Made by a program: the position numbers
Part shown: positions 12,001 through 18,000 of the stretch, piece by piece
Layout: each line of letters begins with the position of its first letter
Position numbering within the stretch: position 1 is the first letter of the stretch
DNA from: a virus
Lineage: Duplodnaviria; Heunggongvirae; Uroviricota; Caudoviricetes
Length of the DNA: 18,707 nt
Virus record (IMG/VR): IMGVR_UViG_2541047425_000010
Strand: one strand, 5' to 3'

Positions 12001-15000
12001 ATCGGGGATTAAATTAAATATCTGGATTAATTAACCGGAGGATTTGTCATGCTCAAACCTCACTACGGAACCATATTAGTTTCTCGCAAGGACGTTAAAC
12101 CCGGCACAGCAATTCTTTACAACGGGCGTTATTACATGGCGTCAGCTAACGTTAATAATGCACTTTACGCACATTCACTGATTGAAAAAATTCGCATTAT
12201 TTCAGATGCAATAGAAGTTTACCTGAACCATAAAGGCCAGCCGTTAATCTCACCAGCCTGAAAGGAAATATCATGCTCAATCAAAAAATTAATATCAATG
12301 TAAAAAGCGTCGTAACGCCAGCAGAAACTATAATGGGTGAAGTTTTTATGGATGATAAAATCATCGCCTATTTTTTTGTCCTGCCTGATGAGGCTATTTC
12401 TGTTATTGATACGGAAGGCAATGTTATGTTTATCGCAGAAAATCCAGAAGACATCGCATTACAGGCCGCTGCATATTTCTTCGCTAAGGAGCAGGAGGAA
12501 GAATGTGACTGCCCTGTCTGTCAGCTTTCCCGACAAATTAATTTAATGCATTAACCGAAATCAGGAGTTCCGCCATGAACGCATACCTCACCTGTGACCG
12601 AATAGAGGAGCGTCGCTGGGTTAATCAGCACATTCAGGATGAAAAGGATAAATGGATTGACGATCGGGCGCAGGAGCTTATCAGCATGTTCCCCGATAAA
12701 CCATTGCTTATGAGCAGCCTTTTTTTACCCAAAGAAGCCCAGCTGGCACTTACTGGCGATAAAGCGGAAGAGGCTTACAACGATTATATCTCAGCGATCG
12801 CCTATGCACGGGCGGAAGAAGAATGGGAGAGGAAATTCTCCCCCTGTCCTTTCTGATTTTCAGGACCAATAAAAATGTTCGATATCGTTGAATTTGTTAA
12901 ACAGCAGGAGCGCTTTTTCTGCGAAGCATTAACTGAACCGACGCTGACATGGGCTAAGGAAAGTCAGTTTGCAATTCAGCAATTCCAGAAAAATTCCTTT
13001 CTGGCTGACACAGCACGGGGAAATCTGTCCAGCGCACAGAACGCTATCATCAATGTTGCCGCCATAGGCATAACCCTGAACCCGGCCAGCAAGCTGGCGT
13101 ATCTGGTACCACGAAAAAAGGCTGTATGCCTGGATATCAGTTATATGGGGCTTCTGCATCTGGCACAGGTCACAGGAGCCATTCAGTGGGGGCAATGCAA
13201 ACTTGTTTACGAGAAGGACATTTACGAGTCCAACGGTATTGACTGCGCCCCCACGCACAAATACAACCCATTCGTCGACAGGGGCGCACGCATTGGCGGT
13301 TATTGTGTCGTAAAAACATCCGAAGGCGACTATCTGACCGAAGAGATGAGCAACAGGGAAATCGAGGTCATCAGGGCGTGCAGCAAAGCCGGAAATAACG
13401 GAGGAAGTAGCCCGTGGGATAGTTTCCCCGATGAAATGGCCAGAAAAGCCATTGTTAAGCGCGCCAGCAAATACTGGCCCCGTCGCGATCGCCTGGATAC
13501 AGCTATCGACTACCTGAACACTCAGGGCGGTGAAGGTATCATCCTGAATGCTGATCACATCCCTGAGCGTGACGTCACTCCCGCATCAGATGAGATTATC
13601 AATGAGATCACTCAGGCAATCACCGAAATTAACAAGACATGGGATGACCTGCTTCCCTTATGTTCCAAAACATTCCGTCGCACGATTGCATCACATGAAT
13701 ATCTCAGTCAGGAAGAAGCTGTCAAAACGCTTGATTTTGTCAAAAAGAAAGCTGCCAGAAACAAGGCCACGGCGGAAGCGAAAATTCACGCCACCACGGA
13801 AAATAACAGCGAGGCCGTGTCATGACACCAGAAATTATTCTCCAGCGAACTGGCGTGGATATTACCAGCCTCGACCAGGGCGATGATGGATGGCACAAGC
13901 TGAGACTCGGTGTTATCACTGCTTCAGAAGTTCACAATGTGATAGCAAAGCCACGTTCCGGCAGCAAATGGCCTGATACAAAAATGTCATACTTCCACAC
14001 CCTGCTGGCTGAAGTTTGTACTGGCGTGGCACCGGAAGTTAACGCTAAGTCGCTCGCATGGGGAAAGCAATACGAAGATGATGCCCGTGCCCTCTTCGAG
14101 TTTATCGCGGATGTTACCGTCTCGGAAACGCCAATAATTTTTCGTGACGAAAGCATGCGCACCGCCTGCTCTCCCGACGGTTTATGCAGCGACGGTAACG
14201 GCCTTGAGCTTAAATGCCCCTTCACTTCCCGCGACTTCATGAAGTTCCGGCTTGGCGGCTTTGACGCTATCAAGCCTGCTTACATGGCCCAGGTGCAATT
14301 CAGCATGTGGGTTACAGACAAGGACGCCTGGTACTTCGCCAACTACGATCCACGCATGAAGCGTGAAGGCCTGCATTATGTCGTGGTCGAACGGGATGAG
14401 AAGTACATGACGAGTTTTGATGAGATGGTGCCGGAGTTCATCGACAAAATGGACGAAGCACTGGCGGAAATTGGTTTTGTATTTGGAGAACAATGGGGGG
14501 TTAATAACTAATGGATGAAGTGATTTTTACTTATAACGAAGAATCAGCACTGACCGCCGGACAAGGTGGTTTTATTACCGAAACGGGTGCGCATATCATT
14601 AACATCACCGAAGCAGAACTCAAGCAATCAGAAAAAGGTGCCCGATTCATTGAGTTTTCTGGAGAATCCGACGACGGACGGAAAATCCAATATCTCAGTG
14701 TTTGTGTTCAGAAGAATGACGGCACTGAAAATAAATTTGGGGCGAGCATTATTCACGCCATGATGGGATGCACAGGAATTGGGCAGTTAACGCAGCATAT
14801 GGTTTCCGTCAGTAAATATGTTGCACCTGAGTTTCACGGAAAGAAAATCGGACTCGTCCTCCAGAAAGTATTAACCACAAACAGAAAGACTGGCGCAGAC
14901 GGTTACCAGATGGAAATCCGCATTCCATTCATTGCAGAAACAGGGCAGACACTGAAAGAAAAAGCTGAAGGAAAGAAACCAGAAACTGTAGCAAATATGG

Positions 15001-18000
15001 TTTCCACTCTCAAAGACAAAGACAATCGCAGCAAAAACGTAAACCCGAATCACACGGACGCCCCAGGTTACTGGCAGTACGGCAGCGATAGTTTTTAATT
15101 CACAAACAAAACCAGGCTTTAAATGCAGTAAACAACCGAAGCCTCAATACACTCTCTACACGGAGATATAAATATGAGTCAGCATCAGACAGATGTTAAT
15201 ATTTTCATTAACGACCTCGACGGCGGGGTATTTGTTAACAAACTTGGCGCGGTATTAAGTGAAGTTGCCTTTGGCGTAAACAGCACAAACAAAAAAGGAA
15301 AGGTATGTGTTGAATTCGAATTATCTTCACTTGATGAAAATCGCGTATCAGTTTCCCATAAACTAAAATTCACACGCCCGACAATGCGTGGTAGTAAATC
15401 AGAAGAAGACACAACTAACACCCCGATGTTTGTAAATAAAGGTGGTGAGCTTACTTTGTTCCAGAAAGACCAGGGACAGCTTTTCGATAAACAGGGTCAA
15501 CATGACGCTGTTTTACGCTGAATAATCCCCGCCTTAAAACGCTCGCGCATTATCCCCAAATCCATAAATTAAAGGTAAATATACATGTCTCAGTTAGATA
15601 GCAATGCCATTAAAGAAATTGTAAAACTCACCACTACTGCTTTTTCTGGTGAAAATTTGCCGCTTACGGAATGCCCTGTTGCGTTATTGCCGGACAATGT
15701 AAATATCGAAAGTCTGGAACGATTCATGACAGAACGTTTTCGTTTCCGTGGAGTCATGACCACAACCAGTATTGATGACTTTGTTGAATACAGCAAAGGG
15801 TATGCCGATGAGCACTCCCGCTGCTTCATTAACGCGGAAACGATGAAAGCAGTCACTGTGTTCAATATCGGCACTCTGGAGCAACCTGGACACGCTGACA
15901 ACAAGGCACTGCTGGAACTGAAAGCCACATCACCATATCGCGCATTGCGTGACGTTGACGGCAAAAAACAACTCCAGAAGTCTCTCGCTGAATGGCTGGA
16001 AGACTGGGCCGACTTCCTCACAGCCTATGACAGCGACGGTAATGTGCTGGATATCAAACAGGCTATCTCTGCTGTCCGTCGTCTTACCATCGATGCAAAA
16101 CGCAGTGCTGAATATGAAGAGCAAAACTTCAGCGGTAGCCGCTCAGTCATGGAGTCCGTGGAGGCTAAAAGCAAAGAAATCATGCCTGCCACTTTCCGCT
16201 TTGAATGCATCCCATACGAGGGCCTGGGCAACAGGGAATTCACGCTGCGATTAAGCATTCTGACAAGCGAACAGCCTGTTCTGGTGCTACGTATCGTGCG
16301 TGTTGAAGCTGCGGAAGAAGAAATTGCCAAAGAGTTCCGTGACCTGCTGAAAGAGCGTTTCGAAGAAGAAGATATCTTAACCTTCATCGGCACGTTCTCA
16401 GTGTGATGAAATCTGTGACAGGGACGTCACGACATATCGCTCATATTTCACGAGAAAATACACAGTTCTTGGAGGGTATACTATGCAATTTAAAGATTTA
16501 CCAGAGGATATTCAGAAAATAGCTGCGGATACGCTTAAAGCCCATTTATCGGTGCTTGATTTAACAAAGGAACCAAAGGCGAATCTGGAAAATATATCCC
16601 GTAACGTGCGAGATGTTTTTGTCGGGCTGTATGCTTATGACAATGAAAAGCACGAGGAACATATTCAAAATGGTTGCATTAATAAATGTCAACAAAATAT
16701 CAAACTTCCTGTTGCTGATAAAACAGAGCAGAAAACAGATGTATTAGTATTCTGGAATACCGTTGAGGCTATCGCCAGGAGCACGATGTTGGAGTTTAAC
16801 AACATCAATCATTCCGGGATCGACACTCATCAATCATCACATCGTGAGGGGTTTTCCATTCTTCTAACTCTGTTACAAGAGCAAGGCGAATATCCTCAGC
16901 CGACATCAAACGATACTGAGCAATAGTCTATTCTCGTACGCTGCAACGTGAGGTCGTACCCCGGACACGGGTAAACATCCGGCAATTCCAGCTTACCACC
17001 TATTTAACCCCCTCCCCGTAACGAGACGAAGAAATGAGCACTCATCATGTTGTGAGTTTTTCAGGCGGTCGGACATCGGCGTACCTCGTCCACCTTATGG
17101 AGCAACGCAGAAAAGCTGGTGAAAACGTTCATTACATACTCATGGATACGGGATGTGAACACCCGCTGACGTACCGGTTTATTCGGGAGGTTGTGAAGTT
17201 CTGGGATATTCCGCTAACCGTGTTGCAGGTCGATATAAATCCAGAGCTTGGGCAGCCAAATGGTTATACGGAATGGGAACCAAAGGATATTCAGACGCGA
17301 ATGCCGGTGCTTAAACCGTTTATGGACATGGTAAAAAAATATGGCACGCCATACATCGGCGGCGCGTTCTGCACTGACAGATTAAAACTCACCCCCTTCA
17401 TAAAATACTGCGATGACCATTTCGGACAAGGGAACTACATCACGTGGCTGGGTATTCGTGCAGACGAACCCCGTAGGCTGAAACCGAAACCGGGCGTCCG
17501 GTATCTTGCCGAACTGTCAGATTTTGATAAGTCGGATGTTATCCGGTGGTGGCGAAAACAACCTTTTGATTTGCAAATCCCGGAGCACCTCGGGAACTGT
17601 GTTTTCTGCATCAAAAAGTCAACGCAAAAGCTGGGGCTTGCATGTAAAGACGAACCTGGTCTGATGCGGGTTTTTAATGAACTGGTTACAGGCAAACACG
17701 TCAGGGATGGTCATCGCAGAACAGGTAAAGACGTTATGTACCGTGGTCACCTGACGCTTGACGGGATTGCCAGGATGTATGCCGACAGCGACTACAGCAA
17801 TTTGTATCAAGCGATGGTGCTGGCCAAGCGGTTTGATACTGGTTCGTGTTCCGAATCATGTGAAATCTGGGGTGACCAATTGGAGTTGAAATTCGAAGAG
17901 GTAGTGGCATGACAATCGTAAAAACCCATACCGGCATTGTGATCACCAAAGACGGCCCGCAGGTAAAAAAACTTCACCAGACAGAGCGGATGTGGGTCGT

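What the first reader, a model, noticed from the sequence alone, without database searches (positions are those of the whole stretch)
14511..16926. Block of four unknown-function early genes downstream of the recombination module
Four ORFs of 195, 115, 273 and 147 aa follow RecT/YqaJ, the first coupled to the exonuclease stop. In lambdoid phages this early-left accessory stretch typically carries host-takeover and anti-defence functions (Gam, Ral, Kil and the like). None has a recognisable catalytic motif, so they are candidates for uncharacterised inhibitors of RecBCD, restriction or other host defences.
Basis: inference. Interest (0 to 1): 0.45.

Follow-up and report, generated by a model that had tools for sequence, protein, structure and literature searches.

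The report
SSB, YfdP–YfdQ pair, orphan gene
The four genes after RecT/YqaJ in this Shiga-toxin-type phage are real but already catalogued: one is the recombination module's own single-strand DNA-binding protein, two are the widespread YfdP–YfdQ pair whose function is still unknown, and only the fourth is a true orphan, so this is an ordinary early-operon stretch and not a new anti-defence island.

Summary
Four same-strand ORFs of 195, 115, 273 and 147 aa lie at 14511-16926, and the first overlaps the YqaJ stop codon (TAATG).

The block is 100% identical to Stx-converting phages PA2, ArgO145 and VT2phi_272. It occurs in 126 of 5,426 complete E. coli genomes.

- **ORF1 is not unknown.** It is 86% identical to the HK620 SSB (HkaK, "SSB-2"), which binds ssDNA experimentally, so it belongs to the GamL-RecT-YqaJ recombination module. 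Its last residues (YGSDSF) differ from those of its Sak4-linked relatives.
- **ORF2 and ORF3 are YfdP and YfdQ/DUF2303.** YfdP was directly upstream of YfdQ in every locus examined. The pair sits either before the HD protein YfdR or beside non-homologous SSAP/exonuclease/SSB genes. AlphaFold models gave no informative structural neighbour.
- **ORF4 is a rare, E. coli-restricted, two-module mosaic protein** with dN/dS of about 0.55. It occupies the slot where yfdR usually lies.

No ORF matches a known anti-defence family, and the anti-RecBCD function (GamL) lies upstream.

The anti-defence reading is unsupported for ORF1, untested for ORF2-3, and only weakly plausible for ORF4. I think YfdP-YfdQ most likely act on DNA replication or recombination intermediates (inferred, about 0.35).

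The parts
14511..15098 (+). ORF1, 195 aa: phage ssDNA-binding protein of the HK620 HkaK / 'SSB-2' (DUF669-related) type. Its start overlaps the stop of the YqaJ exonuclease gene. The C-terminal tail is ...YWQYGSDSF.
   Evidence: phrog_743 'single strand DNA binding protein', E 1e-68. BLASTP to HK620 HkaK: 163/189 identical, E 2e-127. 99% identical to the TL-2011c protein, which PMC12315714 classes as SSB-2. dN/dS 0.09-0.12. No Pfam hit, even at E 10.
15174..15521 (+). ORF2, 115 aa: YfdP family protein (PF27127). The predicted fold is one long N-terminal helix packed on a three-stranded antiparallel sheet, followed by a disordered C-terminal tail.
15585..16406 (+). ORF3, 273 aa: YfdQ / DUF2303 family protein, acidic (pI 4.8). 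Conserved motifs include R-x-R-F-R-G, F-N-x-G-T, P-G-H-A-D and E-D-W.
16483..16926 (+). ORF4, 147 aa: orphan acidic protein (pI 5.0) built from two modules (about 1-55 and about 85-147) joined by a variable linker. It occupies the slot where yfdR lies in most YfdPQ-carrying phages.
   Evidence: phrog_1363, E 2.3e-65, with separate N- and C-terminal PHROG matches. No Pfam, NCBIfam, PADLOC or PDB hit. Only 27 representatives among 1.84 billion proteins, and the named sources are all E. coli. Each module also occurs joined to other partners and in other early-operon positions. dN/dS 0.53-0.57.
12575..14511 (+). Context, the rest of the recombination module to which ORF1 belongs: GamL anti-RecBCD (12575-12856), RecT annealase (12875-13825) and YqaJ/lambda-exonuclease-family nuclease (13822-14511).
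   Evidence: NCBIfam phi80_GamL, 5.2e-44. PF03837 RecT and PF09588 YqaJ. PHROG 1050, 148 and 149. PA2 RefSeq annotation.

Best explanation
The block is three different things transcribed as the distal part of the early-left operon of an Stx-converting lambdoid phage.

(1) ORF1 is the recombination module's own single-strand DNA-binding protein. It is made by translational coupling with the YqaJ exonuclease. It coats the 3' single strand that the exonuclease exposes. Most likely it hands that strand to RecT through its short C-terminal tail, as its HK620 homologue does for Sak4. ssDNA binding is shown for the homologue; the hand-off to RecT is inferred.

(2) ORF2 and ORF3 are the obligate YfdP-YfdQ two-gene cassette. 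YfdQ forms a large homo-oligomer, and YfdP is a small helix-plus-sheet partner. The biochemical function is unknown. The most likely role is as an accessory complex acting on DNA replication or recombination intermediates of the phage and, when overproduced, of the host. This is inferred from gene neighbourhoods and published phenotypes.

(3) ORF4 is a lineage-restricted, modular, fast-evolving small acidic protein that replaces yfdR in this phage lineage. It is the only plausible candidate for a host-protein binder or inhibitor. That is pure inference.

None of the four is a recognisable anti-defence protein. RecBCD inhibition is provided by GamL upstream.
For: Identity of the region: 100% identical over 2,416 nt to phages PA2, ArgO145, VT2phi_272 and Stx2a_F765. 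The PA2 annotation shows the order Rha-Kil-hyp-GamL-RecT-exonuclease-SSB-hyp-DUF2303-hyp-PAPS reductase.

ORF1:
- phrog_743 SSB, 1e-68.
- 86% identity to HK620 HkaK. HkaK binds ssDNA and stimulates its neighbouring annealase through its last six residues (PMC5928155).
- The TL-2011c and ArgO145 type is classed as SSB-2 within a complete four-function Rec module (PMC12315714).
- Stop-start overlap with the exonuclease gene.
- All more distant relatives lie immediately after a Sak4-like annealase gene.
- The tail differs (YGSDSF against NDYPPF, DDAPF and SDLPF). Nucleotide similarity to the Sak4-linked E. coli copies ends at query nt 542, about residue 181. This is consistent with a partner-specific tail.

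YfdP-YfdQ:
- A YfdP homologue is directly upstream of the YfdQ homologue in 80/80 IMG/VR loci, and in 25 of 26 clusters at 85% identity. The one exception is the Stx-phage cluster itself, where my ORF picker failed and adjacency is seen directly.
- The same holds in Vibrio, Xanthomonas and Pseudomonas phages at 36-48% YfdQ identity (HMM E 1e-29 to 1e-49) and in metagenomic contigs.
- Neighbours: an HD-domain YfdR-like gene lies downstream in 13/26 clusters. SSAP, exonuclease or SSB genes lie within six genes in 6/26 clusters. No cluster has both.
- In Vibrio phage 36E38.1 the order is Erf - RecE-like exonuclease - DnaQ-like exonuclease - YfdP - YfdQ - SSB. In contig L093 it is exonuclease - canonical SSB - YfdP - YfdQ. 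In phage JC1, DUF2303 lies near RecT/YqaJ.
- The Rec partners are non-homologous between lineages (RecT or Erf; YqaJ, RecE-like or DnaQ-like; SSB-2 or canonical SSB).
- Published phenotypes: multicopy yfdQRS or yfdQRT blocks oriC initiation and needs yfdQ but not yfdP. The yfdQ deletion raises MMS and H2O2 sensitivity (PMC4776307).
- PDB 9o7m holds 36 YfdQ chains.

ORF4: rarity, module shuffling, relaxed constraint, and position in place of yfdR.
Against: - ssDNA binding by ORF1 itself was not tested. Its tail lacks the Pro-Phe ending of its relatives, and no data show that RecT reads it.
- The Pfam DUF669 model does not detect ORF1, or even HkaK. The link to that family therefore rests on the literature and PHROG.
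- For YfdP-YfdQ the mechanism is guilt by association. Only 6 of 26 clusters have Rec-gene neighbours.
- The authors of PMC12315714 argue that these genes are unlikely to be recombination proteins, because they co-occur with complete Rec modules.
- YfdQ is acidic, which is unusual for a DNA binder.
- Pull-downs found no strong YfdQ-DnaA or YfdQ-YfdR interaction.
- Neither AlphaFold model has an informative structural neighbour.
- Nothing is known about what ORF4 binds.
Confidence: 0.6

Rival explanations
1. One reading: the four proteins, or at least ORF2-4, are uncharacterised inhibitors of host defences (RecBCD, restriction, abortive infection and the like) carried in the early-left accessory region.
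For: - The genes sit in an early operon next to kil and gamL.
- ORF3 and ORF4 are acidic and have no enzyme motif.
- ORF4 is rare, mosaic and under relaxed constraint, as many counter-defence genes are.
- No experiment excludes this reading.
Against: - ORF1 is an SSB.
- RecBCD inhibition is already encoded by GamL.
- No hit to any PHROG family in the host-takeover category or to any PADLOC model.
- YfdP and YfdQ are strongly conserved (dN/dS 0.07-0.19). They keep strict synteny from Escherichia to Vibrio, Xanthomonas and Pseudomonas phages. This is unlike the narrow, rapidly turning-over distribution typical of anti-defence genes.
- They sit inside recombination modules in small phage genomes in which I found no integrase or repressor.
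Confidence: 0.12
2. YfdP-YfdQ form a host-takeover device that shuts down host chromosome replication initiation at oriC, as reported for the CPS-53 yfdQRST cluster. This would free replisome components for the phage.
For: - Multicopy yfdQ with yfdR and either yfdS or yfdT inhibits initiation in vivo, and extracts inhibit it in vitro. yfdQ is required (PMC4776307).
- YfdQ overproduction triggered plaque formation by a resident phage (bioRxiv 10.1101/413146).
- A YfdR-like HD gene follows YfdQ in 13/26 clusters.
Against: - The DnaA-binding component is YfdR. It is absent here, where ORF4 takes its place.
- yfdP was dispensable in that assay, and YfdQ did not bind DnaA detectably.
- The effect needed multicopy expression, and the deletion had no initiation phenotype.
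- HD-type and Rec-type contexts are mutually exclusive, and this window is of the Rec type.
Confidence: 0.18
3. YfdQ is a virion-carried or injected protein that travels with, or protects, the incoming DNA. It would not be an intracellular replication or recombination factor.
For: - The DUF2303 protein gp10 of Burkholderia phage JC1 was detected in purified virions by mass spectrometry (PMC9144972).
- YfdQ forms large assemblies: 36 chains in 9o7m.
Against: - This is a single proteomic observation that its authors called unexpected.
- The gene always lies in early or DNA-metabolism operons and never among structural genes.
- Cryptic prophage CPS-53 keeps the gene although it makes no virions.
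Confidence: 0.06
4. ORF4 is a decaying or non-functional mosaic remnant, not a working gene.
For: - dN/dS is about 0.55.
- Many database relatives are truncated or fused variants.
- There is no family, fold or partner information.
Against: - It keeps an intact 147-codon frame with a GGAGG ribosome-binding site.
- It is 97-100% conserved across many Stx phages.
- dN/dS is still below 1.
- Both modules persist in several independent architectures.
Confidence: 0.1

Closest known systems
SSB of phage HK620 (HkaK, 'SSB-2'; DUF669/N4-SSB-related phage SSBs)
   Same: - Same length (195 aa) and 86% identity over residues 1-189.
- Same PHROG family.
- Same position directly after the genes of the recombination module.
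- Flexible tail ending in an acidic residue followed by a C-terminal Phe.
   Different: - The partner genes are RecT and YqaJ, not the RecA-like annealase Sak4.
- The last six residues are YGSDSF, not NDYPPF, and lack the Pro-Phe ending shared by the Sak4-linked relatives.
- The biochemistry of this copy is untested.
YfdP-YfdQ(-YfdR) cluster of E. coli K-12 cryptic prophage CPS-53 and of lambdoid phages ST64B and LLS
   Same: - Same two families in the same order and orientation, with a short gap (PF27127 then PF10065).
- Same early-left operon location.
- PMC12315714 states that the cluster is present in ArgO145, and this block is 100% identical to ArgO145.
   Different: - About 50-58% amino-acid identity to the common enterobacterial type.
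- No YfdR-like HD gene follows: ORF4 sits there instead.
- The pair follows a complete Rec module and not the immunity region.
PDB 9o7m, 'YfdQ Protein' (36 chains)
   Same: Homologous over the whole length (E 4e-44 for the single sequence, 2.6e-56 for the profile). The conserved RFRG, PGHAD and EDW motifs are shared.
   Different: - By direct reading of the alignments, the solved chain is closest to the Xanthomonas phage CP2 ORF37 type.
- No publication was found.
- The entry was not in the fold-search libraries, so its architecture could not be compared with the model.
Small accessory ORFs of lambdoid early operons (for example the Rac-type prophage ORF P0194 and the nin-proximal ORF P0190)
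   Same: - ORF4 shares its whole length with P0194 (42% identity).
- It shares its C-terminal module with P0190 and P0189 (74-77% identity).
- All are E. coli prophage genes in early operons.
   Different: - They occupy different operon slots: after the immunity region in a Rac-like prophage, and after the replication genes in another prophage.
- The module combinations differ.
- None has a known function.

Membership tests
HK620-type phage SSB (SSB-2 / PHROG 743) | Full-length sequence homology to the experimentally characterised HkaK | tested here: met
   163/189 identical, E 2e-127. phrog_743, E 1e-68, covering residues 3-190.
HK620-type phage SSB (SSB-2 / PHROG 743) | Gene placed next to a single-strand annealing protein gene in a recombination module | tested here: met
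   Gene order RecT - YqaJ - ORF1, with stop-start overlap. Relatives follow Sak4-like genes.
HK620-type phage SSB (SSB-2 / PHROG 743) | Acidic C-terminal tail ending in Pro-Phe that recruits the partner (NDYPPF in HK620, DDDIPF in E. coli SSB) | tested here: inconclusive
   The tail is YGSDSF. The terminal Phe and one Asp are kept, but the Pro-Phe ending is not. The function of this tail is unknown.
HK620-type phage SSB (SSB-2 / PHROG 743) | Binds ssDNA | not testable with these tools
   Shown only for the HK620 homologue (PMC5928155).
Pfam DUF669 (PF05037) | Match to the Pfam model at or above its gathering score | tested here: not met
   No Pfam family at E <= 10 for ORF1, for HK620 HkaK, or for three distant relatives. 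The literature links HkaK to DUF669 by profile-profile methods, and RefSeq names some copies DUF669.
OB-fold SSBs | OB-fold DNA-binding core | not tested
Weak hits to the OB-fold protein eS28 (E 0.3-0.4) vanished with the family profile.
YfdP family (PF27127) | Sequence membership | tested here: met
   53 homologues, all carrying the precomputed PF27127 label, some named YfdP. phrog_204, E 3.9e-44. The local Pfam copy lacks this model.
YfdP family (PF27127) | Located immediately upstream of a DUF2303 gene on the same strand | tested here: met
   15174-15521 then 15585-16406. The same arrangement holds in 80/80 loci, 25 (effectively 26) of 26 clusters, and 4/4 distant phages.
YfdQ / DUF2303 (PF10065) | Match above the Pfam gathering score over the full domain | tested here: met
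   221.5 bits against 26.6, covering residues 27-271 on profile positions 24-269 of 269.
yfdQRST replication-initiation-inhibiting cluster (CPS-53) | HD-domain YfdR (the DnaA-binding component) encoded next to yfdQ | tested here: not met
   The downstream gene is ORF4, which has no HD domain and no Pfam hit. No HD protein appears in the 20 kb of PA2 annotation. A YfdR-like gene is downstream in 59/80 other loci.
yfdQRST replication-initiation-inhibiting cluster (CPS-53) | Inhibition of oriC initiation on overexpression | not testable with these tools
   Known only for CPS-53 genes in multicopy (PMC4776307).
Known anti-defence / host-takeover proteins (Gam, GamL, Abc2, Ral, Ocr and the like) | Sequence similarity to a described family | tested here: not met
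   None of the four ORFs hits a PHROG in the 'moron, auxiliary metabolic gene and host takeover' category, nor any Pfam, NCBIfam or PADLOC model of that kind. GamL is a separate gene at 12575-12856.

The most novel reading that the evidence does not exclude
YfdP-YfdQ is a previously unrecognised, widely distributed two-protein component of phage recombination or recombination-dependent replication machinery. It would be a large YfdQ oligomer with a small YfdP adaptor working with SSB, exonuclease and annealase. [quoted passage not shown] Within the same reading, the swapped C-terminal tail of ORF1 would mark a re-targeting of an SSB from a Sak4 partner to a RecT partner.
Probability: 0.3. Interest if true: 0.55.

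Novelty: already known. Interest (0 to 1): 0.27.

Why it matters
The stretch is identical to many sequenced Shiga-toxin phages. Its gene families are already named and discussed in the literature, so the finding adds no new kind of element.

- **Annotation correction.** ORF1 should be read as the fourth member of the recombination module and not as an unknown gene.
- **A known unknown worth testing.** The YfdP-YfdQ pair is very common and has been kept together from Escherichia to Vibrio, Xanthomonas and Pseudomonas phages. It has a solved but apparently unpublished structure and no assigned function. Its repeated placement beside non-homologous recombination genes is a testable lead.
- **Medical relevance.** These genes sit in medically important Stx phages, including the O104:H4 and O157:H7 types. 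Any role in prophage induction or replication would bear on toxin production.

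Tried and rejected
3. Profile searches of PDB sequences with the YfdQ, YfdP and SSB family alignments found only 9o7m.
4. Pfam DUF669 membership for ORF1 gave no hit, even at E 10. Weak eS28 (OB-fold) hits did not survive the profile search.
5. PADLOC and NCBIfam scans of the four ORFs found nothing relevant. The ChlamPMP_M hit of ORF2 (20.5 bits, below its cutoff of 25) and the weak DNA polymerase III beta-chain hit (E 0.18) were treated as noise.
6. An exhaustive HMMER search for ORF4 returned only 27 representatives and no annotated relative.
7. A literature search for 9O7M found no paper. Searches for YfdP, YfdQ and DUF2303 found no functional study beyond PMC4776307 and a 2018 preprint.
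9. I looked for internal promoters or terminators that might split the block. None was convincing.

Full report
**Observation.** The window carries four consecutive + strand ORFs at 14511-15098 (195 aa), 15174-15521 (115 aa), 15585-16406 (273 aa) and 16483-16926 (147 aa). The YqaJ-family exonuclease ORF (13822-14511; PF09588, 3.8e-28) ends in a TAA that overlaps the ORF1 ATG by one base. RecT (12875-13825; PF03837, 1.5e-24) lies before it. ORF2-4 have Shine-Dalgarno-like sequences, and no terminator-like hairpin lies in the gaps between them. All four match PHROG families at E 1e-44 to 1e-113. Against diverged homologues, ORF1-3 have dN/dS of 0.07-0.19 and ORF4 has 0.53-0.57.

**Where the window comes from.** The 2,416-nt block is 100% identical to Escherichia phages PA2, PA8, ArgO145, VT2phi_272 and Stx2a_F765, and 99% identical to many other Stx1a- and Stx2a-converting phages. 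The whole block occurs in 126 of 5,426 complete E. coli genomes, always on the chromosome. The RefSeq annotation of PA2 gives this order: LexA-family repressor, DNA methyltransferase, restriction endonuclease, Rha-like regulator, Kil, a hypothetical protein, GamL-like nuclease inhibitor, RecT, exonuclease, SSB, a hypothetical protein, DUF2303, a hypothetical protein, PAPS reductase.

**ORF1 is the module's SSB.**
- It matches phrog_743 'single strand DNA binding protein' (1e-68).
- It is 86% identical over 189 residues to HkaK of phage HK620 (E 2e-127).
- Hutinet et al. (PMC5928155) purified HkaK and showed that it binds ssDNA. It stimulates the neighbouring annealase Sak4 in vivo and in vitro through its last six residues, NDYPPF.
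- A 2025 survey of lambdoid Rec modules (PMC12315714) calls this type SSB-2. It cites TL-2011c, whose protein is 99% identical to ORF1, as an SSB-2 paired with a RecT-type annealase. [quoted passage not shown]
- The anti-RecBCD member here is GamL at 12575-12856 (NCBIfam phi80_GamL, 148 bits against a cutoff of 40).
- The local Pfam scan finds no DUF669 match for ORF1, or even for HkaK. The DUF669 label therefore rests on profile-profile work in the literature.

**A detail of ORF1 I found worth recording.** Every more distant relative that I opened lies directly after a Sak4-like gene and ends in an acidic stretch followed by Pro-Phe. The one exception is the Shewanella phage 3/49 copy, which ends in DDWE. 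ORF1 follows RecT/YqaJ and ends in YGSDSF. Nucleotide similarity to the Sak4-linked E. coli copies stops at query nt 542, about residue 181. This fits a partner-specific tail. It is an inference and not a result.

**ORF2 and ORF3 are YfdP and YfdQ.**
- ORF3 matches DUF2303 at 221.5 bits (cutoff 26.6).
- The homologues of ORF2 carry the PF27127 (YfdP) label.
- The two genes are inseparable in the data. A YfdP homologue lies directly upstream of the YfdQ homologue in 80 of 80 IMG/VR loci.
- After adding 80 more diverse loci and de-replicating at 85% identity, the figure is 25 of 26 clusters. The single miss is the Stx-phage cluster itself, where my greedy ORF picker failed and adjacency is visible directly.
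- The pairing also holds in Vibrio phages VvAW1 and 36E38.1, Xanthomonas phage CP2 and Pseudomonas phage LPPA56, where YfdQ identity is only 36-48%, and in metagenomic contigs.

**Context of the YfdP-YfdQ pair.** The pair occurs in two settings that did not overlap in my sample.
- In 13 of 26 clusters an HD-domain YfdR-like gene follows, usually a few genes after a cI-like repressor.
- In 6 of 26 clusters the pair lies within six genes of annealase, exonuclease or SSB genes.
- Those recombination genes are not homologous between lineages. Here they are RecT-YqaJ-SSB-2. In Vibrio phage 36E38.1 the order is Erf, RecE-like exonuclease, DnaQ-like exonuclease, YfdP, YfdQ, canonical SSB. That genome has 37 genes, and I found no integrase in it. 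In contig L093 the order is Rv2179c-like exonuclease, canonical SSB, YfdP, YfdQ.
- Erf, an exonuclease, an endonuclease and an SSB follow the pair in CP2. RecT and YqaJ lie nearby in Burkholderia phage JC1.

**Published evidence on YfdQ.**
- Multicopy yfdQ with yfdR and either yfdS or yfdT inhibits oriC initiation. yfdQ is required and yfdP is not, and YfdR is the DnaA binder.
- The yfdQ deletion raises MMS and H2O2 sensitivity (PMC4776307).
- YfdQ overproduction provoked plaques from a resident phage.
- JC1 gp10 (DUF2303) was found in virions.
- PMC12315714 considers a recombination role unlikely, because the pair co-exists with complete Rec modules.

**Structure.**
- PDB entry 9o7m ('YfdQ Protein', 36 chains) is a homologue (E 4e-44). 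Its sequence is closest to the Xanthomonas phage CP2 type. No paper was found for it.
- Invariant polar residues across the family are candidates for a binding site or an oligomer interface. They include the R-x-R-F-R-G stretch, His and Asp of P-G-H-A-D, E-D-W and several arginines.

**ORF4.**
- It has no Pfam, NCBIfam, PADLOC or PDB match.
- An exhaustive search of 1.84 billion representative proteins found only 27 relatives. All named sources are E. coli.
- It is built from an N-terminal module (about 1-55) shared with many small proteins and a C-terminal module (about 85-147) that also occurs behind other N-termini. A variable linker joins them.
- Relatives sit in other early-operon slots: after the immunity region of a Rac-like prophage, and after the replication genes of another prophage.
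- In this phage lineage it takes the place that yfdR occupies in 59 of 80 related loci.

**Interpretation.** The block is not one functional unit. ORF1 completes the GamL-RecT-YqaJ-SSB module. For YfdP-YfdQ, the best-supported mechanism is an accessory complex acting on replication or recombination intermediates (about 0.35). The rivals are host replication takeover (about 0.18), anti-defence (about 0.12) and a virion-borne role (about 0.06). ORF4 is the only gene with the evolutionary profile of a host-interaction factor, and nothing positive is known about it.

**Novelty and score.** The sequence, the families and even this exact gene arrangement are already in the literature, so I class the finding as already known. 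The interest is low to moderate. It lies mainly in the unexplained YfdP-YfdQ pair.

Noticed in passing
window 11089-11164 and 11189-11276 (+): Rfam gathering-level matches to the isrK Hfq-binding sRNA (58.7 bits) and the C4 antisense RNA (77.1 bits). They lie in tandem just upstream of the Rha/anti-repressor-like ORF at 11331-11978, with a promoter-like site at 11054-11082. The layout looks like a P1 c4/ant-type or Gifsy-1 isrK/anrP-type antisense-controlled anti-repressor unit at the head of the operon that contains the four genes.
   Followed up: no
window 8051-10470 (+), hairpin at 10489-10510: A methyltransferase (8051-9520) overlaps a restriction endonuclease (9517-10470), named as in the PA2 annotation. 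The pair sits between the repressor gene (7243-7956) and the early-left genes and is followed by a strong terminator-like hairpin. This is a phage-borne restriction-modification pair, that is, a defence system carried by the prophage itself.
   Followed up: no
window 17034-17912 (+): The gene after ORF4 is a PAPS-reductase-fold protein (PF01507, 2.9e-08; phrog_424, 2e-92). It has weak similarity to SspD (2.4e-14) and DndC of DNA phosphorothioation systems. It is present in only 7 of the 11 closely related loci. Its role in the phage is unknown.
   Followed up: partly
window 15040-15098 (3' end of ORF1): There is a mosaic junction inside the SSB gene. Nucleotide similarity to the Sak4-linked E. 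coli copies ends near residue 181. The last residues (YGSDSF) differ from the NDYPPF and DDAPF tails of relatives that follow Sak4-like genes.
   Followed up: partly
PDB 9o7m versus L085:3068-3892 (Xanthomonas phage CP2 ORF37): The only solved YfdQ structure has 36 chains and no paper that I could find. By direct reading of the alignments it is nearly identical to the Xanthomonas phage CP2 type and not to the E. coli type.
   Followed up: partly
L005:3911-4384; NZ_CP040572.1 and NZ_AP042495.1 (hits H126, H128): Some prophage copies of the block are damaged. In one IMG/VR contig the SSB ORF diverges after about residue 140 and ends early. IS3-family elements (IS1203) interrupt the block in some O157:H7 and bovine strains.
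   Followed up: no
L084:1529-2680 (VvAW1 gp28) and L085:3933-5468 (CP2 ORF36): A large coiled-coil-rich protein of unknown function (phrog_16469 / phrog_1376) recurs next to YfdP-YfdQ and the recombination genes in Vibrio and Xanthomonas phages.
   Followed up: no
window 12273-12554 (+): A conserved 93-aa protein of unknown function (phrog_1635, 2.1e-63) lies between kil and gamL. It ends with a CxCPxC-like motif. It is an unknown early gene that the finding did not include.
   Followed up: no
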